Origin: a virus
Length of the DNA stretch: 64,000 nucleotides
Strand: one strand, 5' to 3'
IMG/VR virus record: IMGVR_UViG_3300014208_000005
Span: 1 to 64,000 of that record
The stretch's first letter is position 1. Every line of letters begins with the position of its first letter. Below the pieces are notes generated by a model. The model was not told where the DNA came from. It made no database searches and was given only the letters and a program-made list of their open reading frames with translations. Shown here piece by piece: positions 1,943 through 25,557 of the stretch. The position numbers and the translations under genes are program-made.

Positions 1943-3291
1943 TGAAAAGACAATCTAAAAGAAGTTATGCCGATCAGGCAAAATTCATAGTCCGCAAGTT
2001 CAAGAAACGTTTGGGAGAAAACTTTGAACGTTCTGATCCGATGGCTGAAAAAGAAATGCAGCGTCAGCTAGATGAACTGGCTGAACGTCAGGAAGAAGCA
2101 AAGCAAAGAATAACTGAACAGCAATTCCAAGAAATGCCTGATCAAATGGCTTACGGCGGATGTTTACCAAAAATGTGGGCCGGTGGTGATGTTTATGTTG
2201 ACATGTTAAAAAATCAATCTGAATTTGTTCAACCATTGCCGAATACTATTGAGAATTACAATCCTTATTTCAATCAACGTGCTGCCAGCTATGATAGAAA
2301 CAATAATGATCTAGTATCAATGTCATTAATCAGAGCAAATTCTGGGTTTATTCCAAGGCAAGCAAATAGATATCTTAGGGGTGTGCAGAATTCTGGAAAT
2401 GGTTACAATCTAACTGCAGATCAATTTAGTAATTCTGATGGAGCACAAAAGATGCCAATTATTCAACCAAACATTAACTCTCAAAATACATCTCTAACTT
2501 CTCCTTACAAAGTTGGTAATAATATTCCAGACGATCCTCAACAGCAAGAACAGTCTTGGTGGTCACAAATTCCAACTGAAACTAAAATTGGTGCTGGAAT
2601 TCAAGCTGCTGGAGCAATTGGTGGATTAGCGATGAGTGCATTTAACAAACCAAAGAAATCAACATTCAATCCAGTAGCTGCACCCAAACCTAAGTTCATT
2701 GATAATGATGAACAATTGGCTCAAGCTACAAGAGCTTACAGGGGGAGAATGTCAGATATGCGTTATTTATCTCCGTCACAATACATGGCTGCGATGGGTA
2801 GCATGGCCGCTCAGGAAGCTGCTACAAAGGCAGGCATTGTTGAAAATACCGCTAACACTAATGCTGGAATTGAGAATCAATTTGGTTGGCAAAAAGCTGC
2901 TTTACAGCAAGCGAATGAGCAAGGTCGTTTAGGAGTTGAACAATACAATAATGCTAATGAGCAAGGTTACTTGGGAAATATTTCGCAAGGCTTATCTAAC
3001 ATCAGCAATGTTGGTGCTGGATTTATGAAAGACGAATTATCAAGAAAAGCACAGCAGGATGCATTAGGTTTTCAAACTCAACCTGGTTATGGAATTACTT
3101 GGGTTGGAAACAGACCGATTAGAACTGTAATGCCAGCTCCTGGATTTGAGTATTACACACATCCTAAGACTGGTAATAAAACGTGGATGATAAATGGTCA
3201 ACCTGTTGATCCTAAAGAATACAATGCTAAGTTAAAAGAATATTGGGATACTCACAGATACGAGGAAACTAACCCTAAAGAAAAGAAGTAA
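1942..3291 (+). CDS. Putative virion cargo/ejection protein
   Basis: 449 aa, Q/N/A-rich, hydrophobic G/A segment IGAGIQAAGAIGGLAMSAF; MAYGG and MWAGG motifs; translationally coupled. Confidence 0.6.
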   Translation: MKRQSKRSYADQAKFIVRKFKKRLGENFERSDPMAEKEMQRQLDELAERQEEAKQRITEQQFQEMPDQMAYGGCLPKMWAGGDVYVDMLKNQSEFVQPLPNTIENYNPYFNQRAASYDRNNNDLVSMSLIRANSGFIPRQANRYLRGVQNSGNGYNLTADQFSNSDGAQKMPIIQPNINSQNTSLTSPYKVGNNIPDDPQQQEQSWWSQIPTETKIGAGIQAAGAIGGLAMSAFNKPKKSTFNPVAAPKPKFIDNDEQLAQATRAYRGRMSDMRYLSPSQYMAAMGSMAAQEAATKAGIVENTANTNAGIENQFGWQKAALQQANEQGRLGVEQYNNANEQGYLGNISQGLSNISNVGAGFMKDELSRKAQQDALGFQTQPGYGITWVGNRPIRTVMPAPGFEYYTHPKTGNKTWMINGQPVDPKEYNAKLKEYWDTHRYEETNPKEKK

Positions 3292-3292
3292 T

Positions 3293-5296
3293 ATGTACCA
3301 ATTACAACCTACACAATATCAGTCGATGTTCAGCCCGCTGGACATTGGAGCAATTTCTCAAGGATTAAGAGAAAGTCAGCAACGATCAGATGCTGCTAGT
3401 CAAGCATGGGCGCAAACTTCCTCAGGGTATTACGACGATTCTACTTACGATCCTGCGATGAAAGAAAAATTCATGCAGAATCTTAATGAGCAATACGATA
3501 AATTAAGGACTAGTTATTCAGGAGACCTCGGAGCCGCAACCTCAGATTTGATGGGGTTGATTGGTGGTTCCAGGAGAGATCCTTACTTAAACCTTAATAA
3601 GGTAGCCTTAGAGAAGCAGAAAGAACGTGATGCTCTTAAGAAACAATTCGGTGCGAAAGCGTTAGTCTTTAGTGATCTTAAGAAGGGTCTTACAGATGAA
3701 GAAGGTAATTGGAGGAAACAAGATGACTTTAATTACGAAGTTGTTCAAGACCTTGAGAGAGATAAAAAGTTAGCAACAATAATTGATCAGTCTTTGAAGA
3801 AGGTTTCCAGAGAAGGTGGTCTTTACAATGATCCTCGTTATCCTGGAATTTTAACAAGAAAGACTGAATTCAGTGAGGGAATGTTACAGAAGAAAAATGA
3901 AACTATCTATCAGGAATATTTGGACACACCTGAAGGACAACTACATTTGAGGATTCTTAAGGATTTAAATAAAGATAAAAATCCAGAAGCATCATTAAAA
4001 GCTTATGTTGATAATGCAATATCTAATAGGGTTTCACCAATAAGCATTTCTTATCAAGACACTCATTTGCCCAGAGAAACAAGAGGAAGCGGTAATACAT
4101 TTAACCCAAATGTTTATTCTCCACTAAAGTCAACTCAAGCACAAACAATTAAATCTTCTGTTTTCAAGTCAGTTGAGGATGTTAGAACTAATGCTTTAAG
4201 TAAAAATGCAGAGCCTGAAATTAAAGAATATTCAAATTACTTGATAACTAAAGTAAAGAACGACTCAGAATTAACTAATATTAAAAAGATAATTGATTAC
4301 ACAGCAAAACAATTAGGGATGAGTGTTGCTGGAACTACTGGTAATCTAGAATTAGAAGGAGTTGGTAAAAGTAAATCTCTTGAAGGTAATAAAACTTATG
4401 GATACACAACACCAGAAGGTGTTTATGTAGCTCCAGATAATTCTAATGTTGAAAAAGCAGATCCTGTTAGAAGTGCAAGAGTTTCTAATTTAATTAAAGA
4501 TATTAAAAGATACAATGATATTTTTAATAATAAATTAACTGAAAATCTTCCTCATAATGTTATTGATGACTTTGAAACATTAGATCCTAGTAAGGGAGTT
4601 GATGCTGATAATACACGAGACTTAAATACTCAAGTTATTGCACTTAACGGATTAATAAAAAAATACCATTCTTCCGATTTTACTTATTTAACCGGACCTT
4701 ATTCAGAACCATCAGTTATTGGGAACATTAAAAAGAAGCTTAAAAAGCAAGATAAAAATTTTAATGATGAGGATTTAAAAGCATTTGAAGATTCTGGATT
4801 TGAGTACTCTGGGCATTCAGTTAATGGTGATAGATTTAAAATGATTTTGAAAGATAAGTTTGGAAGAGAACATCAAATCACTCCTAACAGTGCTGAGGCG
4901 GCTATTTCGTTAGCGGAATCTACTAAGGACATTAGAGCAGAAAGGGTTGCTGTTGGAAGTACTATTGATTTTGTTCCTAATAGCAATAAGTATTTTGCTA
5001 TGAGAAATGGAACTATGGAGCCAATTGAATTTCCAAAAGGACTTACTGTTAATGGAAATGAAGGTGCTTATCAGATAATGGTTAAAGACAAACCAGTAAG
5101 CATTGAAACTTATGTCAATTATTTGAATTCAATAGGACAACCAGAAGAAGTAATCAATAATTATTTAAGAGCAGTGTCGCAGTATTACTCAGATGGAGAT
5201 ATCAATAGTTTAAGTAAAAAGGCAGCCTTAATGCGTGACGATTATGATGTGTTTAAATTCCTTGAAAATAATAGAGTAATAAATCTTTCCCGCTAA
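3293..5296 (+). CDS. Putative virion cargo protein preceding the RNAP
   Basis: 667 aa; N-terminus YQSMFSPLD; position immediately before the giant RNAP gene. Confidence 0.55.
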   Translation: MYQLQPTQYQSMFSPLDIGAISQGLRESQQRSDAASQAWAQTSSGYYDDSTYDPAMKEKFMQNLNEQYDKLRTSYSGDLGAATSDLMGLIGGSRRDPYLNLNKVALEKQKERDALKKQFGAKALVFSDLKKGLTDEEGNWRKQDDFNYEVVQDLERDKKLATIIDQSLKKVSREGGLYNDPRYPGILTRKTEFSEGMLQKKNETIYQEYLDTPEGQLHLRILKDLNKDKNPEASLKAYVDNAISNRVSPISISYQDTHLPRETRGSGNTFNPNVYSPLKSTQAQTIKSSVFKSVEDVRTNALSKNAEPEIKEYSNYLITKVKNDSELTNIKKIIDYTAKQLGMSVAGTTGNLELEGVGKSKSLEGNKTYGYTTPEGVYVAPDNSNVEKADPVRSARVSNLIKDIKRYNDIFNNKLTENLPHNVIDDFETLDPSKGVDADNTRDLNTQVIALNGLIKKYHSSDFTYLTGPYSEPSVIGNIKKKLKKQDKNFNDEDLKAFEDSGFEYSGHSVNGDRFKMILKDKFGREHQITPNSAEAAISLAESTKDIRAERVAVGSTIDFVPNSNKYFAMRNGTMEPIEFPKGLTVNGNEGAYQIMVKDKPVSIETYVNYLNSIGQPEEVINNYLRAVSQYYSDGDINSLSKKAALMRDDYDVFKFLENNRVINLSR

Positions 5297-16175: not shown

Positions 16176-19100
16176 ATGGCGGTCTGTAAAATTACAAAAA
16201 CATCTAATAAAGAATTAGAAGGTTTAATTGATGAGCTTGGTCAGACTGAGGGGCTTAAAGCTTTTCTTTCTGTTGAATTTTCTGCAATACCAATTAAGGG
16301 TAATGAGTCTTTGTACGAACGTTCAAGATTACTTAAAACTAATGGAGAACCACGTAATTTTAGTTTTGAAGATGCTCAAAGAATTTCTGCCACATTACGA
16401 GAAAATCATCCAGAATACAAAATTAAAGTTTCTAAAAGCTTTAAAGGGTGGCAGATACAGTTTGGAGAAAAAAACAATTTATTTGCTCAGGAACAACTTA
16501 CATCAAACGAATCTGATAAGATTTCATCTTTAGAGAATAAGTTATTAACGTTTCTATCTCGAATTGGAATTACAGTCAATTCTGTTAAGAAACTTAAAGC
16601 CAAAGATAAAGATGGTAATGAATTAGATGCTATTGCTGTAGCTAGAATTATGCAACGAGTGATTGATGTTGTTGAAGGAAAAGCTAAAGCTGATACTCTT
16701 GGTGAAGAAACAGCACACTTTTTAGTTGAATTGCTTGGAGATCATCCTTTAGTTCAAGCGATGTTACGTGAAATTACTGGCTATGATGTTTACGCTGAGG
16801 TCGTTGCGGAGTATTCTGGAATTGAAGGATATGACGATTTAGCTTTAAGAAAAGAAGCTGTAGGGAAATTGATTGCTAAGATTTTAGTAGCTAAAGAACG
16901 TGGAGAAGTATTGCCTCAAAGAGCAATGGCTTGGTGGGAATTGTTGTGGAATTGGATTAAACAGAAGTTCTCACGCATTTCTTCTAGCGAAATGAAAGAA
17001 GCTTTGAGTCCGTTTGAAGTAGCTGCAGAACGCATCTTAACAGGTAATACGTCTGATTTAAGTTGGGAAAATATTGGCGAGAATACCCCAATAGAACTGT
17101 TCCAAATACCTCAAAGCGTTATTGACTACAAAAAGAAAGTCTTAGAAAAGCTTAATGAGAAATTAGTGTCGTTGGATTTAAAGACTCAATCATACGTTCG
17201 TGCCTCAGATAACAAGAAAGTTATGAAGCGTGTGACTGATAATATTAAAAATTATTATCGCTTTTTATTTAGATCGAATGATCTTACGGATGAGGGTACT
17301 TTACAATACGCTCATGCTGGAATTGTAATACACAAAGTATTTGAGGTAACGATTGGTAAAAATACCAGAAAAGAAATATTTAAATACAGTGATGTTATTG
17401 AAGAAGTTGAGAAGCAATTGCGTGAAATTGAGGAATTTAAAGATAAACCTGAAGGATATTTTGCGGGGATCGTTAGTTTAGAGAGCTTCCAGAAAGTAAT
17501 AAAACCAACGATTAAAGGAATTGTAACGCAGGTTAATGAAGTTGAGGAGAGAATTGCTAAGACTCAAGGACTTACGGAGGAAGAGCGTCTAGAAAACAAG
17601 CCCACTTATCTAACAGAAGTGTCGTTGTACGATGCTAAAGAAGATATTGCAGGAACGGTTGACTTAATTGTTGTTCATTCAAATGGTGCAGTTTCAATTT
17701 TTGACTGGAAATCCTTAGCGTTTGACACTGTTGGCAATAAGACAGCTAAAGAAGTACCTTGGTACAAAAGAGGTGCTTGGGAACAGCAATTAGCTGCTTA
17801 CAAGAATATGCTTAAAGAGCAGTACGGAATTACAGAATTTGCTTTAAGCAGAGTTATTCCAATCAATGTTCAATTCTGGAAAGCAGGGAAGCTTGAAGGT
17901 CAAGTGAGTAAATTACAGTCTGGTTTTAGCACTGTTGACCCAAACTTACAGCCTGTACCACATGTCACAGAAAGAACTGATGATAAGAGGATTAACGCTC
18001 AACTTGAGAAATTAGAAGCTCAACGTAAGACTTTGTTAGATGCTCACTTAACTAACAGAAAGGATAAGAAAATCCTTGAAGCATTAGACAGAGTTGATGC
18101 AACAATCAGGGCATTACAACTGAATAAGGACATTGATTTTGTTGCGGAGCAGATTAGTAACATTAATGTTAAGATTAAGAAAGCTGAGCATGAGATTGAA
18201 TCGGTTGACGCTGAAGGTAAACCTAATCCTAATTACATTGGAATTCATCAACTTAACGAGTACCGTGAGTATTTAGATTTGTTGGATGAGTTTGCAACGA
18301 TTGGAGTTGAAAGCACAGAGGATCCAGTTATTAAAGCTAAATACAAAGCTTTGAGTTATGATAGGACTGAATCATTAGGAATCATAAGAGTTAAGGTTCA
18401 CGACGCAATTCTGGCTGCAACTGGGATTGACATTAATAAGCCTGCTAAAGAGGCAACTTTCTTAGGTAAGATTTTTAATCGTGTTTCTCAGTACGATAAT
18501 CCTTTCCTAAAAGCTATGAGCAAACTCATCAGAGGTAACTATGATGCATCTCAAGAGTCTTCTGAGAAAGTTCATGCAAAACTTGAAGAATTAGATGCAA
18601 AACTGGAAGAATGGGGTAAAGCTAACGGAATGAGTAAGTTTGAAACATTCAAGTTATTCTACAATGAAGAAACTGGAATGCTTCATAGGCGTCTTAGTAA
18701 GAAGTATTATGAAGATTTAGAAACGGCTAAAAAGAAGAATGATTCTGCTTGGCTCATTAAAAACACTCAGGTAGGACGTTTCTCAGAGTCGGCTGACAGT
18801 GATAACACTTACTTAGATTATGTGGGGGAGGCTAAAGTTAAGTTTGAAGATGCACGTAGGAAGAAAGAGGAAGACTTACACAAATCTTATGATGGATTTG
18901 GTAAAGAGGGAGAAAGGAAGATTGCTGGATTTATGAGAACGTTTGATAAGAAACACAATATTAAAAATCATCCAGATGCTGCTTACAATCCTGATAATTA
19001 CTTTGTTAGAATACGTCCGGAAAACAATGATTACAACACACAGGAATGGACGTTCATAAACAAACACGAAGCTCTTAAAAATTATTATGATTACCACACA

Positions 19101-21173
19101 GAGTTAATGGAAGAGTTGAACACCTTAGTTGATGTTCACATTGATCAGCATTTTGTAGCAAACATTCAGAAAACTCTGATTGACAATGTTGCTCAAGGAG
19201 GGGGGTTTATTCCTAAGAACATGTTGTCGTCTTTATTGCAAACATTGCAGGTTCATGATGATGATAAATATCGTGGAGTATTGGGGAATGACAAAGACAA
19301 TAAAAAAATACCTTTGATGTATTTCCACCCAATTCGTGAGGCTCTTAACTCAAAAGAGAAAGAGGAAGCTAAAGACTACATTCGAGGTCAAAAAAATAAA
19401 GACGGGTCGGTAAGATTTACTGAAGGGACGGCTGCGTTTGATGAGGCATTGGCAGACAGAATAAAGAACGACGAATACAAAAAAGGACGTAAGAATAAGA
19501 GTATTGACTTAAGTAAGACAACATTGCTGTTTGCTCACTCTGTTTACACACACAGTTCATTTGCAAATACTGAGGATTTAATTAAAGCGATGAAGGCTTT
19601 AATGGCTGGGAACAAACAGAAACAGCTGGAAACGACTAAGGAGGGGAAATTAAAGGAAAACATCTTCACGAAGAAGGTTTCAGAAGTAATGGGAATTCCT
19701 AAGGGTGATGTAGAATCATTTGATAAGTTTATGGATTTGTATTGGTACGGAATTTCAGGAGGTAACTGGGAAAAGACTGTTGAACTATTTGGACGACAGA
19801 TTTCACTTAATAAAGCGTCTCAACAGTTGATGCGCTACATCTCATTTAAAGCCTTAGGTTTAGCGCCATTGTTAGCTATCGGTAACTTAGTTGGAGCGGA
19901 ATCAATGGCTTTCCTTAAAGCTACAGAGGGAATTCATTTTAAGACGTCAAATTTAGTGAACGCTATTAGAAGAATTACAACACGAGATGCAAAATACGTT
20001 GCATTTGCGGGATTCTTTGATCCTCATGCACCTAATATGACTTTAGAAGATGCGCGTAAGTTGTCAGCTTCACAACTATCTAAATGGGCTACTTCTGATA
20101 ACATGTTTATTCTTCACCGTTCTGGCGATCAATTAGTTGATAAGCATGTACTAATGGCTATGGCTGAAAACTACGGATTTGATCCTTCAGACGGTAAGAT
20201 AAAATTACTTACAAAAATTGCAGATAAATCTGTTAAGTCTTTAATTGAGTCTGCTGTGTTAACTGATAAAGGTTTGGAAATACCCGGATTTACAGACAGA
20301 TTTAAGGAAGAACAAATTAAGCAGGAGTTTAGAGATTTTAAATTCAAGGTTAAGAATCAGCTTAATTTAATCAAAGGTTCTATTCCAGTTGAAGATAGAG
20401 ACTTAAGTAATAGCACATTACTGCTATCGTCTGTAATGATGTTTAAGCACTGGATGCCGGGGTTAATTAGAGCACATTACAAGGACTTTAAGATTGATGA
20501 TGAAGGTGAGGCTGATGTTGGACGTTTTTCTGTAATGATTGGTGAGTTCACGGCTAAGGGATTCTTACCAAAAATGGCTGCGTTTAAAGACCTGTTATTG
20601 GAAGTAAGCTTATGTGGATTTTACAAAGGGAATGTTAACGAAGCAGTTACAGAAAGTTATTACAAGAAATACATTGATGAGTTTAGACTTTCAAAAGATC
20701 CAAAAGCAGATAACTTTCTGTCTTATGATGATTTTAAAGCCTTAAGATTAGCAAAATTTAGAGCATCAGCAGCTGAGATACGGTTGTGGATTGTATTTAT
20801 GATGATGGTTATGGGTGCTAGAGGAATGATTCCAGACGACAAAGAAGACAACACTAGAAAACCAGCGTTAATTCTTTACAGAGCGTTAAATCGGTCGTTG
20901 TTAGAAGTCTCCTTCTTTATTGACCCATCATCCATGATGCAGGTGACATCAAATCTAATGCCTCAGATTCGTATTATTACTGATGTTATGAAGCTTACTA
21001 AAAACACTGCCTTAGTTGGCTATGATTTAGTTACCGGGAATAAGCCTAAAAAAAGTCAGAAAACACGTCGTCCATTCTACTATTCAAGTACTATGGTTCC
21101 AGGTCTTAATAAGGGAATAGACTTTTGGGATGCTTGGGATACTTATGTACCTAATGGTTTCTGGAAGAGATAA
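16176..21173 (+). CDS. Large RNAP-associated virion protein with degenerate zincin-like and PD-(D/E)XK nuclease domains
   Basis: 1665 aa; TLGEETAHF...EAVGKLIA; IAGTVDLIVVHSNGAVSIFDWKS...QQLAAYKNML. Confidence 0.7.
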   Translation: MAVCKITKTSNKELEGLIDELGQTEGLKAFLSVEFSAIPIKGNESLYERSRLLKTNGEPRNFSFEDAQRISATLRENHPEYKIKVSKSFKGWQIQFGEKNNLFAQEQLTSNESDKISSLENKLLTFLSRIGITVNSVKKLKAKDKDGNELDAIAVARIMQRVIDVVEGKAKADTLGEETAHFLVELLGDHPLVQAMLREITGYDVYAEVVAEYSGIEGYDDLALRKEAVGKLIAKILVAKERGEVLPQRAMAWWELLWNWIKQKFSRISSSEMKEALSPFEVAAERILTGNTSDLSWENIGENTPIELFQIPQSVIDYKKKVLEKLNEKLVSLDLKTQSYVRASDNKKVMKRVTDNIKNYYRFLFRSNDLTDEGTLQYAHAGIVIHKVFEVTIGKNTRKEIFKYSDVIEEVEKQLREIEEFKDKPEGYFAGIVSLESFQKVIKPTIKGIVTQVNEVEERIAKTQGLTEEERLENKPTYLTEVSLYDAKEDIAGTVDLIVVHSNGAVSIFDWKSLAFDTVGNKTAKEVPWYKRGAWEQQLAAYKNMLKEQYGITEFALSRVIPINVQFWKAGKLEGQVSKLQSGFSTVDPNLQPVPHVTERTDDKRINAQLEKLEAQRKTLLDAHLTNRKDKKILEALDRVDATIRALQLNKDIDFVAEQISNINVKIKKAEHEIESVDAEGKPNPNYIGIHQLNEYREYLDLLDEFATIGVESTEDPVIKAKYKALSYDRTESLGIIRVKVHDAILAATGIDINKPAKEATFLGKIFNRVSQYDNPFLKAMSKLIRGNYDASQESSEKVHAKLEELDAKLEEWGKANGMSKFETFKLFYNEETGMLHRRLSKKYYEDLETAKKKNDSAWLIKNTQVGRFSESADSDNTYLDYVGEAKVKFEDARRKKEEDLHKSYDGFGKEGERKIAGFMRTFDKKHNIKNHPDAAYNPDNYFVRIRPENNDYNTQEWTFINKHEALKNYYDYHTELMEELNTLVDVHIDQHFVANIQKTLIDNVAQGGGFIPKNMLSSLLQTLQVHDDDKYRGVLGNDKDNKKIPLMYFHPIREALNSKEKEEAKDYIRGQKNKDGSVRFTEGTAAFDEALADRIKNDEYKKGRKNKSIDLSKTTLLFAHSVYTHSSFANTEDLIKAMKALMAGNKQKQLETTKEGKLKENIFTKKVSEVMGIPKGDVESFDKFMDLYWYGISGGNWEKTVELFGRQISLNKASQQLMRYISFKALGLAPLLAIGNLVGAESMAFLKATEGIHFKTSNLVNAIRRITTRDAKYVAFAGFFDPHAPNMTLEDARKLSASQLSKWATSDNMFILHRSGDQLVDKHVLMAMAENYGFDPSDGKIKLLTKIADKSVKSLIESAVLTDKGLEIPGFTDRFKEEQIKQEFRDFKFKVKNQLNLIKGSIPVEDRDLSNSTLLLSSVMMFKHWMPGLIRAHYKDFKIDDEGEADVGRFSVMIGEFTAKGFLPKMAAFKDLLLEVSLCGFYKGNVNEAVTESYYKKYIDEFRLSKDPKADNFLSYDDFKALRLAKFRASAAEIRLWIVFMMMVMGARGMIPDDKEDNTRKPALILYRALNRSLLEVSFFIDPSSMMQVTSNLMPQIRIITDVMKLTKNTALVGYDLVTGNKPKKSQKTRRPFYYSSTMVPGLNKGIDFWDAWDTYVPNGFWKR

Positions 21174-22623: not shown

Positions 22624-23016
22624 CTAACTTATTAATTCTCTTATTGCTTCAATATCCTTCTTAACTTCAGGCAGATACTGTGAATCTCTTATTGCTCTAC
22701 TTGCGTGCCAAACTAACTCCTCACTGTAAGGCGGTTTTGAAATCCTCCCTATGTCACCAGCTGTTAATCCACTGTAATGATACAAAAAGTAAAACAACAT
22801 GTGTCTCCTGTAAACAATCTCATCTGCTTGACTTGGGTCAAAGAAATCCTTTAATTCTTTACCAAAGTGCTTACAAATGACAATTGTTATCCTTTCGACA
22901 GACGGTAATTTTTCAAGAAATTCATTTACAGTTTCCTCTGTAGCTTTTAGTATTGCTAATTGTAGTTCTTCAGAATAGTAATCAGGTATTTTGTAAGTTA
23001 CTGTTTTTGGCTTCAT
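22624..23016 (-). CDS. DnaA domain IV-like helix-turn-helix protein
   Basis: IVYRRHMLFYFLYHYSGLTAGDIG...LVWHASRAI resembles the DnaA C-terminal pattern R-Q-x-AMYL...SL..IG...TVLHA..KI. Confidence 0.55.
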   Translation of the reverse strand: MKPKTVTYKIPDYYSEELQLAILKATEETVNEFLEKLPSVERITIVICKHFGKELKDFFDPSQADEIVYRRHMLFYFLYHYSGLTAGDIGRISKPPYSEELVWHASRAIRDSQYLPEVKKDIEAIRELIS

Positions 23017-23580: not shown

Positions 23581-23885
23581 ACCTCAACGTTGTAAGTTCC
23601 GTTAGTTAGCTGTGTTGTAAGATTATTAGTATTATTAGTTCCGCAAGTAATCCAAGGTTGAGGATAAGTAGGATAAATAGGTAAAGGATTAGTTAGCGGA
23701 CGAACCCAGATATCTTTCCAGATGTAAGGCGTCTGCCAATTGTTAATAATCGTGTTAACCTCTAAAGTAAAGTCTTCCCAAAGTCCATTTGGCAATAACT
23801 GTTCCAAAGTACTGAAAAACTCGTCAAGTTTAACTCTTGAGTCAAGCTTAATTGTTTTATTTGTTGTATCCAATTGTATTTTCAT
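23577..23885 (-). CDS. Hypothetical protein
   Basis: 102-aa ORF with ATGA overlaps to both neighbours. Confidence 0.6.
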   Translation of the reverse strand: MKIQLDTTNKTIKLDSRVKLDEFFSTLEQLLPNGLWEDFTLEVNTIINNWQTPYIWKDIWVRPLTNPLPIYPTYPQPWITCGTNNTNNLTTQLTNGTYNVEV

Positions 23886-24754
23886 ATTTCTGTTAAATTA
23901 AAACTGCTTGGATAAATCTTCATATCTTTTAAATCTAAAAATTTACTCATTATCTCAGGCTCGTAAAGATTGACTTTGATATTATGACCGTCTTTAAGTA
24001 AATAAGGATAGAAATTAGCACCAAAAGCTATTTTAGATTGATTTTCAGGCAACTGTGTTATTAGATATTTCCAATCTATTTCTTTCTTAATTGCTCTTCC
24101 TTGAACCCCATAAGGCAATAAAACAAAGTAATCAACTTTACTTTCCCAAGAATCATAAATTCTCCTGAAATCATTTATTGAATCATAATCAGAAATAATA
24201 ATATGAAAATTTAACCTTACATTGTAGGTTGAGTAAAACTGTGCTGCGGACTGCCAAAAGGGTTGTAAATGTGGATGGCAACTGACGGCTACTCCTCCAC
24301 AATAATTGATTGTTGCATTGATTAAATCTTTTTGTTCTTTTGTTAATTCAACAAACTGTCTTGTGTTTATTGCTCCAGACCACATCCCATTTGTTGTGTA
24401 GTTAGGACAAATATCAAGTTCTTCTTTTAAAACTCTTAACAATTCAATAAAGTCTGGATGTGAAGTAGGTTCCCCACCTCCAAGAGCAACTTGGAAAGGT
24501 CTTTCGTTTGAAGACATTGGACCAAAGAAGTTCCTCACTTTTGAAATAATATTTTTGTAGTGTTCTTCCTTAGAACTGTTCATGTAACAATAAGGACAGT
24601 TACCTTCACAATTTCCAGTTACTTTTAAATCATAAAATTCTGGGTATTTTAGTTCTAAGATTGGTTTAGAAGAGTCAATGGCAAAACGTAAAGTCTTGCC
24701 ATTGCACCATATTGCTCTGTAATTTGATTCTTTTTCTATTCTTGTTTTTATCAT
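23882..24754 (-). CDS. Radical SAM protein
   Basis: CxxxCxxC (CEGNCPYC), ALGGGEPTSHPDF, NYTTNG. Confidence 0.9.
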   Translation of the reverse strand: MIKTRIEKESNYRAIWCNGKTLRFAIDSSKPILELKYPEFYDLKVTGNCEGNCPYCYMNSSKEEHYKNIISKVRNFFGPMSSNERPFQVALGGGEPTSHPDFIELLRVLKEELDICPNYTTNGMWSGAINTRQFVELTKEQKDLINATINYCGGVAVSCHPHLQPFWQSAAQFYSTYNVRLNFHIIISDYDSINDFRRIYDSWESKVDYFVLLPYGVQGRAIKKEIDWKYLITQLPENQSKIAFGANFYPYLLKDGHNIKVNLYEPEIMSKFLDLKDMKIYPSSFNLTEI

Positions 24755-24755
24755 G

Positions 24756-25139
24756 TTATCCCAAATGAAACCTTTCTACATCATATCCAAAAGCATCTTG
24801 AATAAAATCAAACATCCAATATGGAATGCTATTATCAAAAGCTCCACGAATAATTATTCCTTCATTCCTATTTGAATGATAATAAGTTTCGAACCCATTT
24901 AATGCTTTAGAAGGTTCTCCTAGATAAGGTTCGTCAAATACTTCATTAAATGTGTAAGATGTGTTGTGTATTTTATTATGTAGGCTTATTGCTTCAGATA
25001 ATATTTCTCTAACTAGTTCTACAGATTTGTCTTTACCTAAAACAAATAATTCTGTGCTGCTATTAGTAATTACATCAATAAAGGAATGTGGTTGGATTAC
25101 AAAAAATGTATTCTTCTTATCCGTCTCTAGTCGCTTCAT
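24756..25139 (-). CDS. Radical SAM-associated ITNSST-motif protein 2
   Basis: HSFIDVITNSSTELFV near the N-terminus; DNSIPYW near the C-terminus. Confidence 0.65.
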   Translation of the reverse strand: MKRLETDKKNTFFVIQPHSFIDVITNSSTELFVLGKDKSVELVREILSEAISLHNKIHNTSYTFNEVFDEPYLGEPSKALNGFETYYHSNRNEGIIIRGAFDNSIPYWMFDFIQDAFGYDVERFHLG

Positions 25140-25557
25140 GGTCTGTAGAATAAAGATAACTTAAAAGCTTATTTGCTAATTCTGAATGTATTTCATTTTT
25201 AGCTCTTAAACAAAGAGTTGATGAAGGAGAATAATAATCACAACAACTAGTATCTTCTTCAGCTTTCTTCATCCATTCTGGTTTTACTGTTTTTCCAGTT
25301 AAAATATCATCAATAAGTTGTTTTAAATCTGTTCCTTCTGGGAATTCTTCAAATTCACTATAAACATAATTTTCTTCTGCAAAAACCCCAGCGTAAAACA
25401 AATCATCAAACGTTTCTGTCCTACTAAAAGTTTTAAGCATTTCATTTACTAATTCTTTAACAGCCTGTAATGAACCTTCAGAATAAGTAAAAATAACAGT
25501 TGATGAATTAGTAATCAAATCAACTGAACTGTGTAATTTAATTTTAATTGTTTCCAT
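25117..25557 (-). CDS. Radical SAM-associated ITNSST-motif protein 1
   Basis: HSSVDLITNSSTVIFT near the N-terminus. Confidence 0.65.
   Translation of the reverse strand: METIKIKLHSSVDLITNSSTVIFTYSEGSLQAVKELVNEMLKTFSRTETFDDLFYAGVFAEENYVYSEFEEFPEGTDLKQLIDDILTGKTVKPEWMKKAEEDTSCCDYYSPSSTLCLRAKNEIHSELANKLLSYLYSTDHEATRDG

What the first reader, a model, noticed from the sequence alone, without database searches (positions are those of the whole stretch)
23882..25557. Radical SAM enzyme with two dedicated partners sharing an N-terminal H-S-x-x-D-x-I-T-N-S-S-T motif
Seen: three tightly coupled genes. Both upstream proteins are otherwise dissimilar yet share HS(F/S)(I/V)D(V/L)ITNSST (about 25053-25070 and 25498-25515). 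They are followed by a short radical SAM protein (CxxxCxxC, GGGEP) with no obvious C-terminal SPASM Cys cluster. The module sits between UNG and HAD/RNA ligase, near a ferritin. Knowledge: radical SAM enzymes install protein modifications (glycyl radicals, formylglycine at Ser/Cys) and make modified nucleotides. Inference: the ITNSS motif is the modified site or the catalytic loop of an uncharacterised heteromeric enzyme, i.e. an undescribed phage maturase-substrate system for anaerobic nucleotide or DNA modification or anti-defence. I know of no assigned function.
Basis: partly seen in the sequence, partly recalled or inferred. Interest (0 to 1): 0.75.

Follow-up and report, generated by a model that had tools for sequence, protein, structure and literature searches.

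The report
Phage radical SAM enzyme with tagged partners
A divergent crAss-like phage carries a widespread but unnamed two-part cassette, a radical SAM enzyme plus small acidic proteins that all begin with an invariant Asn-Ser-Ser tag predicted to enter the enzyme's active site, and relatives of the same pair sit in bacterial and archaeal NLR-like immune operons.

Summary
Three translationally coupled minus-strand genes encode two ITNSST-motif proteins (146 and 127 aa) and a 290-aa radical SAM (rSAM) enzyme. The two small proteins are distant paralogs (27% identity), not unrelated.

- **Coupling:** of 80 viral contigs fetched through the enzyme alone, 79 carry 1-6 motif proteins beside it. No other gene family is shared.
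- **Size and status:** about 2,760 clusters at 50% identity. No Pfam, PHROG or NCBIfam model matches the motif proteins, and they have no relative in GenBank phages.
- **Structure:** alone, the 146-aa protein folds confidently except its invariant N-terminus. With the enzyme, that N-terminus is predicted to pair with the enzyme's N-terminal sheet and enter the barrel (score 0.70, best control 0.00).
- **Enzyme class:** the fold is nearest to the peptide maturases SuiB and SkfB, but the SPASM cysteines are lost.
- **Cellular relatives:** bacteria and Asgard archaea keep the SPASM domain. They also have a small protein with an N-terminal FVSNSSS tag beside the enzyme. In 45 of 52 loci the pair sits in a four-gene operon with a SMEK-nuclease/NACHT (Avs2-like) protein.

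Best reading (0.55): a protein maturase and its tagged substrates, used in phage-host conflict. The chemistry is unknown.

The scan had already noted this cassette in other phage genomes, and the STAND cassette elsewhere.

The parts
25117..25557 (-). ITNSS-family protein A, 146 aa, pI 4.5. It has an N-terminal tag, a globular alpha/beta body and a conserved C-terminus ending HEATRDG.
   Evidence: ORF. At least 210 metagenomic homologs. AF2 gives pLDDT 84, with residues 1-18 below 50. No Pfam, PHROG or PADLOC model; the only NCBIfam row is a weak sub-cut-off one.
25498..25533 (-). Tag HSSVDLITNSST in A (residues 9-20).
   Evidence: Coordinates. Asn-Ser-Ser is 100% invariant in 180 family members. 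Residues 7-26 form the predicted interface with the enzyme.
24756..25139 (-). ITNSS-family protein B, 127 aa, pI 5.1, a paralog of A. It belongs to the subfamily ending (R/E)xHLG.
   Evidence: BLASTP against A gives 27% identity, E 5e-8. The same A-then-B order and 23-nt overlap are seen in L001 and L002. The family HMM hits it at 1.2e-20.
25053..25088 (-). Tag HSFIDVITNSST in B (residues 18-29).
23882..24754 (-). Radical SAM enzyme, 290 aa, derived from the SPASM class but without auxiliary-cluster cysteines.
   Evidence: PF04055 scores 36 bits against a cut-off of 29.5. At least 931 homologs at 60-75% identity. AF2 pLDDT 94. Foldseek best hits are SuiB, SkfB, BlsE and EpeE. hhalign gives 99.9% to cellular rSAM/SPASM relatives.
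24587..24610 (-). CEGNCPYC, the CxxxCxxC ligands of the radical SAM [4Fe-4S] cluster (residues 49-56).
   Evidence: Invariant in 119 homologs.
24467..24481 (-). GGGEP, the SAM-binding 'GGE' motif (residues 92-96).
24386..24406 (-). PNYTTNG, a family-specific invariant loop (residues 117-123) lining the predicted tag-binding cavity.
   Evidence: Invariant. Residues 118-120 are in the predicted interface. The loop is also kept in cellular relatives.
23900..23968 (-). Remnant of the SPASM/twitch hairpin, LYEPE...YPSSF (residues 263-285). Y264 and S283 stand where cellular relatives have Cys.
   Evidence: hhalign alignment. Cellular relatives score PF13186 SPASM at 27.7 bits against 21.5. Residues 264 and 283-285 are in the predicted interface.

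Best explanation
The cassette is a protein-maturation system.

1. The radical SAM enzyme recognises the N-terminal segment of each ITNSS-family protein.
2. The strand x-I-K-L-H-S-x-x-D adds to the enzyme's own three-stranded N-terminal sheet. In this it acts like a leader peptide.
3. The following I-T-N-S-S-(T/S) loop enters the barrel over the [4Fe-4S]/SAM site.
4. A 5'-deoxyadenosyl radical then abstracts a hydrogen within or next to the invariant Asn-Ser-Ser and installs a post-translational change.
5. The products are 1-6 fast-evolving acidic proteins per phage, each with a different globular body. They probably act in host takeover or in conflict with host immunity.

**How firm each step is.**
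- Shown: the genes, the motif, the obligate co-occurrence, and the kinship with cellular rSAM/SPASM-plus-tag pairs in STAND operons.
- Predicted only: binding and insertion of the tag.
- Inferred: that the tag is modified, and the biological role.
- Unknown: the chemistry.
For: **Coupling in both directions.**
- Of 31 non-duplicate loci fetched through the motif protein, 27 have the enzyme within 5 kb.
- Of 80 loci fetched through the enzyme, 79 have 1-6 motif proteins on the same strand. In the one exception, a 100%-complete genome, the two lie elsewhere in the same record.
- Across 71 non-redundant loci only these two families are shared (71 and 70 loci). The next family is in 9.

**A tag pattern.**
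- Mean identity among the paralogs is 16%, yet Asn-Ser-Ser is 100% invariant, Thr 98%, Ser(-5) 97% and Asp(-2) 91%.
- The enzyme is far more conserved, at 50% mean identity.

**Structure predictions.**
- AF2 of A alone gives pLDDT above 90 for residues 20-140 but below 50 for residues 1-18, the invariant part.
- Complex prediction scores 0.70, 0.72 and 0.70, against a best control of 0.00 from 3 controls.
  - That mark was reached by 58 of 80 solved complexes and 2 of 110 mismatched pairs.
  - The runs agree in at least 79% of contacts, and the partner's pLDDT is at least 71.
  - Caveat: my own alignments were used and SAM plus a 4Fe-4S cluster rode along, so those counts hold only roughly.
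- Partner residues 7-26 make the interface. Residues 8-13 pair with enzyme strand 20-25, and residue 15 touches A90 beside the GGE motif.
- Barrel-lining residues touched are 88-90, 118-120, 153-156, 182, 184, 243-247, 264 and 283-285.
- Invariant residues are enriched in the interface: 16 of 33 for the enzyme (p 8e-6) and 13 of 19 for the partner (p 2e-6).

**Enzyme class.** The best solved folds are the RiPP maturases SuiB (E 5e-11) and SkfB, then BlsE and EpeE.

**Deep conservation of the pairing.**
- Enzymes at 26-35% identity that keep SPASM, from bacteria and Asgard archaea, each have a motif-bearing ORF beside them. In bacteria it is about 132 aa and lies just upstream, starting MKIKxDFV(S/T)NSSSTSF.
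- The small-protein bodies are not detectably homologous to the phage ones: hhalign aligns only the first 32 columns.
- One Asgard copy fuses the tag to leucine-rich repeats.
Against: - No modification has been observed. The complex is a model's confidence, not a measurement.
- A tightly bound non-substrate subunit would give the same co-occurrence and the same predicted interface.
- The phage enzyme has lost the auxiliary clusters used by most peptide-modifying SPASM enzymes, so its chemistry may differ from that of its cellular relatives.
- No invariant non-cluster Cys is available as a hydrogen donor, which argues against epimerase-type chemistry.
- The partners are folded proteins of about 145 aa with conserved C-termini and a P-x-W, so they are more than carriers of a tag.
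- Two incomplete viral records (22% and 60% complete) have a motif protein without a detectable enzyme.
Confidence: 0.55

Rival explanations
1. The ITNSS proteins are subunits or adaptors rather than substrates. The invariant N-terminus plugs into the enzyme and completes or gates its active site. The variable bodies then direct one catalytic subunit to different targets, such as a nucleic acid, a nucleotide or a host protein.
For: - Extreme invariance of six residues is more typical of a catalytic or structural element than of a leader peptide.
- There are 1-6 interchangeable paralogs per enzyme.
- The bodies are confidently folded.
- The predicted interface fits this reading as well as the substrate reading.
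- In the KpAvs2 operon the small accessory protein Avap2 is a binding partner of the STAND protein, not a known substrate (PMC11564622).
Against: - No other conserved gene or candidate target travels with the cassette.
- The nearest solved folds are peptide maturases that bind a substrate strand in the same manner.
- The tag is disordered in the protein alone, as expected for a segment that is threaded into an enzyme.
Confidence: 0.25
2. The motif is an autoprocessing or intrinsic catalytic site of the small proteins, for example Asn-Ser or Ser-Ser cleavage or a pyruvoyl-type cofactor. The radical SAM enzyme works beside it in the same pathway on a small molecule such as a nucleotide or cofactor.
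For: - Asn-Ser and Ser-Ser are classic self-cleavage junctions (general knowledge).
- Earlier first-reader notes on other phages raised the same idea.
- The window's neighbours include UDG and an RNA ligase, and L001 and L002 have CoaE-like, dUTPase and PNKP genes nearby.
Against: - Those neighbours are not conserved across loci.
- The tag is predicted to enter the enzyme.
- The motif proteins match no enzyme fold: best Z 3.7, Foldseek E above 0.8.
- NCBIfam matches to QueE, NrdG and MoaA are far below their cut-offs.
Confidence: 0.12
3. The association has no function: a chance motif, or simply neighbouring phage genes.
For: None beyond the absence of any experiment.
Against: - 79 of 80 loci are coupled in otherwise unrelated genome contexts.
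- The pairing is kept from phages to Alphaproteobacteria, Acidobacteriota, Verrucomicrobiota, cyanobacteria and Asgard archaea.
Confidence: 0.01

Closest known systems
SPASM/twitch radical SAM peptide maturases with their precursors: SuiB-SuiA, SkfB-SkfA, CteB, EpeE/YydG
   Same: - These are the best structural matches (SuiB 5v1q E 5e-11, SkfB 6efn E 2e-9).
- A substrate strand is predicted to add to an N-terminal sheet of the enzyme and the next residues to enter the barrel.
- One enzyme serves several paralogous partners with a conserved recognition segment.
- Cellular relatives of the enzyme carry a true SPASM domain.
   Different: - The phage enzyme has no auxiliary-cluster cysteines; Y264 and S283 replace them.
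- There is no winged-helix RRE domain, only about 35 residues with three strands.
- The partners are folded acidic proteins of 100-300 aa, with the tag at the N-terminus ahead of a globular body. They are not short leader-core peptides.
- No Cys, Trp or Lys is present in the conserved site, so the known thioether or Lys-Trp chemistries cannot apply.
KpAvs2-Avap1-Avap2 defence operon of Klebsiella pneumoniae (Bechon et al. 2024, PMC11564622)
   Same: - It pairs a STAND/Avs2 nuclease with a radical SAM protein (Avap1) and a small protein of about 130 aa (Avap2). The role of the radical SAM protein is unknown.
- Cellular relatives of the window's pair sit in an analogous operon with a SMEK-nuclease/NACHT protein that matches Avs2 models.
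- An Avap1-type enzyme aligns to the phage enzyme at 97.8% probability, E 8.5e-13.
   Different: - Avap2 is DUF6375 and lacks the Asn-Ser-Ser tag. hhalign gives 0.7% probability.
- PF19902 is absent from five genomes that carry the SMEK-NACHT cassette.
- That cassette has a second small protein of about 121 aa.
- The phage cassette has no STAND gene at all.
Glycyl-radical-enzyme activases (PFL-AE, NrdG) and anaerobic sulfatase maturase (anSME/AtsB)
   Same: They are radical SAM enzymes that act on a loop of a full-length protein. PFL-AE is likewise small and lacks auxiliary clusters, and it appears among the fold matches (3c8f, E 5e-6). anSME oxidises a Ser or Cys.
   Different: - The tag has no conserved Gly and no RVxG-type motif.
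- The tag has no (C/S)xPxR motif.
- NCBIfam scores are far below cut-offs: NrdG 18 against 126, and sulfatase maturase is not listed for the phage enzyme.
- anSME needs two auxiliary clusters that the phage enzyme lacks.

Membership tests
Radical SAM superfamily (PF04055) | CxxxCxxC cluster motif, GGE SAM-binding motif and a partial TIM-barrel fold | tested here: met
   - C49, C53 and C56 and GGGEP 92-96 are present.
- PF04055 scores 36 bits against a cut-off of 29.5.
- The AF2 model has pLDDT 94, with 138 PDB matches at E<=1e-3; every listed match is a radical SAM enzyme.
SPASM/twitch subfamily of radical SAM enzymes | C-terminal Cys-rich domain that ligates one or two auxiliary [4Fe-4S] clusters | tested here: not met
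   - There is no PF13186 hit and no Cys after residue 168.
- Y264 and S283 align to SPASM cysteines of the cellular relatives.
- Those relatives do meet the feature: PF13186 27.7 bits against 21.5, TIGR04085 31.8 against 27.
- The phage enzyme is therefore a derived, cluster-less offshoot.
RiPP maturase-precursor systems | Short precursor with a leader and a core, and an RRE (PqqD-like) leader-binding domain | tested here: inconclusive
   - Leader-like strand pairing is predicted.
- No RRE or PqqD domain was detected.
- The partners are folded proteins with a median of 144 aa.
- It works like such a system, but I do not file it as a RiPP system.
Glycyl radical enzyme / activase pairs | Conserved Gly in an RVxG-like loop of the partner protein | tested here: not met
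   No Gly appears among the three commonest residues at positions -9 to +11 of the tag in 180 members.
Anaerobic sulfatase maturase / formylglycine system | (C/S)-x-P-x-R target motif and two auxiliary clusters in the enzyme | tested here: not met
   The tag is I-T-N-S-S-(T/S) with no Pro or Arg. The phage enzyme has no auxiliary-cluster Cys.
KpAvs2-Avap1-Avap2 type operon | Avs2 STAND gene adjacent, and a small partner that is DUF6375 (PF19902) | tested here: not met
   - There is no STAND gene beside the phage cassette.
- The ITNSS family against an Avap2 sequence gives 0.7% probability.
- PF19902 was not found in five genomes that carry the related cellular cassette.
- Only the radical SAM component shows distant similarity.
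7-deazaguanine (QueE), NrdG or viperin-type nucleotide-modifying radical SAM enzymes | Family-level score over the curated cut-off, and pathway partners nearby (FolE/QueD/QueC, NrdD, a kinase) | tested here: not met
   - QueE scores 17.6 against 260, NrdG 18 against 126 and viperin 25.6 against 180.
- PADLOC pVip hits cover only residues 44-125.
- No such partner genes are conserved across loci.

The most novel reading that the evidence does not exclude
A radical SAM enzyme writes a previously unknown post-translational mark on an N-terminal Asn-Ser-Ser tag, and this tag-enzyme pair is a shared currency of phage-host conflict.

- Phages use it to mature batteries of fast-evolving acidic effectors.
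- Bacteria and Asgard archaea wire the same pair to SMEK-nuclease/NACHT (NLR-like) sensors, and in one case to a leucine-rich-repeat fusion.
- The mark would then either arm or restrain an immune receptor, and phage copies could act as decoys or antagonists.
Probability: 0.3. Interest if true: 0.85.

Novelty: new variant of a known kind. Interest (0 to 1): 0.72.

Why it matters
- **Scale.** The cassette is large and unnamed: about 2,760 clusters at 50% identity for the tagged proteins, and 220 viral contigs with the enzyme. Genome sizes range from about 17 kb fragments to 500-kb jumbo phages. The close ITNSS form is missing from cultured-phage databases.
- **A testable gap in radical SAM chemistry.** The substrate site is defined to six residues. 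It has no Cys, Trp, Lys or Gly, and the enzyme has shed its auxiliary clusters.
- **A concrete lead for an open question.** What the radical SAM accessory proteins of Avs/NLR-like immune operons do is unanswered; Avap1's role was left open in PMC11564622. Here a candidate substrate lies next door.
- **A cultured entry point.** Vibrio phage D479 carries a member of the wider family.

Tried and rejected

- Complex prediction was unreachable three times before the same request ran.

**Searches that found nothing useful.**
- blastn and tblastn of the region and of A and B against 50,697 phage records gave no match.
- The enzyme gave only distant hits there, at 23-37% identity.
- Pfam, PHROGs and PADLOC gave no family for A or B, and NCBIfam gave none for B.
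- The one weak NCBIfam row was A residues 101-145 against T4 RnlA (TIGR02308), E 4.6e-5, 22.7 bits against a cut-off of 242. I treat it as unexplained and probably compositional.
- A profile search of solved-structure sequences gave nothing below E 0.05.
- Fold searches of the A model gave no clear match: Foldseek best E 0.85, VIA-align best Z 3.7.
- The protein atlas returned only virus-only 'hypothetical' clusters.
- A search for longer, fused forms of 414 aa or more found none, which is weak evidence.
- Ten longer family members of 211-320 aa have no Pfam domain in their extra parts.
- Literature searches for the motif, for phage radical SAM maturases and for SMEK plus radical SAM found no description.

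**Ideas considered and dropped.**
- QueE, NrdG or viperin-type nucleotide chemistry.
- Glycyl radical activation.
- Formylglycine formation.
- Identity with Avap2/DUF6375.

**Not tried.** Protein B could not be sent for a second complex prediction because the cap is one job.
Full report
**What is in the window.**
- Three co-directional minus-strand genes are packed without spacers.
  - A is 25117-25557 (146 aa), B is 24756-25139 (127 aa), and the radical SAM enzyme is 23882-24754 (290 aa).
  - A and B overlap by 23 nt. One nt lies between B's stop and the enzyme's ATG. The enzyme's stop overlaps the next start.
  - HSSVDLITNSST is residues 9-20 of A.
  - HSFIDVITNSST is residues 18-29 of B.
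- The enzyme has CEGNCPYC at 49-56 and GGGEP at 92-96, with no Cys after residue 168.
- Upstream is a UDG-family gene. Downstream, after four small ORFs, is an RNA ligase.
- The record is a complete 93,940-bp virus genome with direct terminal repeats, and it holds only these two motif genes.
- Its 1,665-aa protein is most like proteins of crAss-like Bacteroides phages, at 27% identity. The phage is therefore a divergent crAss-like virus.

**Correction to the observation.** A and B are paralogs: 27% identity over 112 residues, E 5e-8. In the family alignment they also share a P-x-W and a C-terminal Glu.

**The two families travel together and alone.**
- Metagenome searches found at least 210 relatives of A and at least 931 of the enzyme. 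Many share contig lengths.
- IMG/VR loci fetched through the motif protein show 1-5 motif-bearing ORFs in tandem, usually directly upstream of a 275-313-aa radical SAM gene.
- The reverse test is the stronger one. Of 80 loci fetched through the enzyme alone, 79 have 1-6 family ORFs on the same strand, mostly upstream and some downstream.
- The exception is a complete genome in which the two lie apart.
- Clustering all same-strand ORFs of at least 70 aa in 71 non-redundant loci gave only two shared families: the enzyme (71 loci) and the motif proteins (70 loci, 174 ORFs). The next family is in 9 loci of near-identical phages.
Other loci have dUTPase, PNKP, CoaE or an endonuclease instead.

**Size and status of the family.**
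- A profile of 76 motif proteins finds 2,760 clusters at 50% identity with E<=1e-3, and 1,612 with E<=1e-10.
- The protein atlas lists only virus-only 'hypothetical protein' clusters.
- No Pfam, PHROG or PADLOC model matches A or B. NCBIfam gives only one weak sub-cut-off row for A.
- No GenBank phage record holds a relative of A or B.
- In 180 unique members:
  - the consensus is I-K-I-(H/Q)-S-x-x-D-x-I-T-N-S-S-(T/S)-x-(I/L)-(F/Y);
  - Asn-Ser-Ser is 100% invariant;
  - the tag starts 11-22 residues from the N-terminus;
  - the median length is 144 aa and the median pI is 4.66.
- Mean pairwise column identity outside the tag is very low, 16% overall. The enzyme keeps 50%.

**Structure.**
- AF2 of A with a 150-row alignment gives a confident alpha/beta body (residues 20-140, pLDDT above 90). 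The invariant residues 1-18 stay below 50.
- The body has no clear match in the PDB.
- The enzyme model is excellent (pLDDT 94). It shows three short N-terminal strands followed by the barrel.
- Its best solved relatives are SuiB, SkfB, BlsE, EpeE, viperins and CteB. PFL-AE ranks lower.

**Predicted complex.**
- Enzyme plus A, with SAM and a 4Fe-4S cluster riding along, scored 0.70, 0.72 and 0.70. The best of 3 controls scored 0.00.
- That mark was reached by 58 of 80 solved complexes and 2 of 110 mismatched pairs. The runs agree in at least 79% of contacts and the partner's pLDDT is at least 71.
- The counts hold only roughly, because my own alignments and small molecules were used.
- The interface on A is residues 7-26, plus helix residues 31-43 and residues 134-135.
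- Residues 8-13 pair with enzyme strand 20-25, with the lowest-error contacts at R23 with H9 and S10. Residue 15 touches A90 beside the GGE motif.
- The tag is surrounded by the family's invariant barrel residues: N118, T120, G154-A156, N182, H184, G245, Y264, S270 and S284.
- Invariant residues are enriched in the interface on both sides, p 8e-6 and p 2e-6.
- This is a model's confidence, not a measurement.

**Deeper relatives.**
- A scan of one genome per prokaryotic species found enzymes at 26-35% identity over nearly the full length. They occur in Alphaproteobacteria, Acidobacteriota, Verrucomicrobiota, cyanobacteria, Chloroflexota and Asgard archaea.
- hhalign confirms the kinship: 99.9% probability, E 9e-35, over 250 columns. 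The PEFxD, FQVAxGGGxP, PNYTTNG and YPxSF motifs are kept.
- These cellular enzymes are about 345 aa and carry a SPASM domain. Phage Y264 and S283 align to their SPASM cysteines, so the phage enzyme is a cluster-less derivative.
- Almost every bacterial locus has an ORF of about 132 aa immediately upstream that starts MKIKxDFV(S/T)NSSSTSF. In Asgard loci the motif ORF lies downstream.
- The phage-family HMM does not detect these proteins. hhalign aligns only the first 32 columns, at 21.7% probability.
- What is conserved with the enzyme is thus the tag, not the body. One Asgard copy fuses the tag to leucine-rich repeats.

**Cellular context.**
- In 45 of 52 cellular loci the pair closes a four-gene operon:
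  - a protein of about 889 aa;
  - a protein of about 121 aa with no known family;
  - the tagged protein;
  - the rSAM/SPASM enzyme.
- The large protein has a SMEK N-terminal domain (PF21941, E 3e-42) and a NACHT-type NTPase that matches PADLOC Avs2 models (E 1.5e-21). SMEK is cited as a nuclease domain of short-Argonaute systems in PMC10810196.
- An earlier follow-up in this scan described this cassette on other DNA and pointed to Bechon et al. 2024. I read that paper (PMC11564622):
  - KpAvs2 needs a small accessory protein, Avap2 (DUF6375), which binds it.
  - A radical SAM protein, Avap1, is needed against some phages.
  - The role of Avap1 is unknown, and it did not look like a viperin.
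- The cassette found here is analogous, not the same:
  - PF19902 is absent from five of its genomes.
  - Avap2 shows no similarity to the tagged proteins.
  - Avap1-type enzymes are only distant relatives, E 8.5e-13.

**Interpretation.**
- The best-supported reading is a maturase with tagged protein substrates (0.55).
  - The tag is invariant, disordered alone, and predicted to thread into the active site.
  - One conserved enzyme serves a variable number of diverged partners.
  - The enzyme descends from the peptide-maturase class.
- A non-substrate subunit or adaptor model fits most of the same data (0.25).
- An autoprocessing or parallel-pathway model is weaker (0.12).
- The chemistry cannot be named.
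  - The tag excludes thioether, Lys-Trp and glycyl-radical chemistries, and formylglycine formation by its canonical motif.
  - The loss of auxiliary clusters argues against oxidations that need them.
  - The lack of an invariant free Cys argues against Cys-donor epimerisation.
- The biological role is inferred from three things: the acidic, fast-evolving, copy-number-variable partners; the placement in early or replication-type modules; and the STAND-linked relatives. Together these point to conflict with host immunity, in an unknown direction.
- The phage family is much commoner than the cellular cassette. The enzyme's relatives turned up in 58 of about 185,000 species genomes, six of them the phage-type pair on short contigs that are probably viral. 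Exaptation of a phage pair by defence operons is therefore plausible but untested.

**Side observations.**
- In three loci the enzyme gene is interrupted exactly at the third cluster cysteine by an intein-like insert. It shows C-F-V-G-D-T at one edge and V-H-N-C at the other, and a separate 291-aa ORF lies between the halves.
- Vibrio phage D479, a cultured 258-kb phage, carries a 401-aa relative of the enzyme. A 132-aa protein starting MKIRNGFVSNSSSSSF lies 1.4 kb upstream. This gives an experimental handle.

Noticed in passing
L070:3446-5711 (also L072 and L088): The radical SAM gene is split at the third Cys of CxxxCxxC by an intein-like insert. The N-part ends ...CPYC-FVGDTRI... and the C-part begins ...VLVHN-CYQDS. 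A separate 291-aa Cys-rich ORF with no Pfam hit lies between the two halves. This could be a split or degenerate intein with a free-standing endonuclease.
   Followed up: partly
L180 (Vibrio phage D479, OZ195776.1): 1119-1517 and 2878-4083: A cultured jumbo phage carries a 132-aa protein with the cellular-type tag (MKIRNGFVSNSSSSSF) and a 401-aa relative of the enzyme (family HMM E 2e-17), with a homing endonuclease next to it. Both are annotated as hypothetical proteins.
   Followed up: partly
L133:5975-7393 (Promethearchaeota MAG) and L122:2265-5333: In Asgard and other archaeal loci the tagged protein lies downstream of the enzyme. One copy is fused to leucine-rich repeats (473 aa). Another locus has a 1,023-aa LRR protein next to the enzyme.
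   Followed up: partly
L123:4246-4608 and equivalents in 45 loci: A second small protein of about 121 aa, with conserved ...DLK.EY..YY.VEY..., always lies between the SMEK-NACHT gene and the tagged protein. It has no Pfam or PADLOC match.
   Followed up: no
window 25117-25260 (A residues 101-145): The C-terminal third of A gives a weak NCBIfam match to T4 RnlA-family RNA ligase at the same profile positions (E 4.6e-5, 22.7 bits against a cut-off of 242). A true RNA ligase gene lies 2.6 kb downstream. This is unexplained and may be compositional.
   Followed up: no
window 25117-25139; L001:6440-6462; L002:6446-6468: The 23-nt overlap between the A-type and B-type genes is kept in distant loci. 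The conserved C-terminus of A (HEATRDG) and the N-terminus of B are therefore encoded by the same bases.
   Followed up: no
window 22624-23016: A 130-aa protein has a sub-threshold match to the DnaA C-terminal helix-turn-helix (PF08299, E 1e-5, 25.9 bits against 31.5).
   Followed up: no
window 16176-21173: The N-terminal part of the 1,665-aa protein is weakly similar to proteins annotated as 'putative RNA-polymerase subunit' in crAss001-like phages. The protein is 27% identical over 93% of its length to a hypothetical protein of uncultured phage cr108_1.
   Followed up: partly
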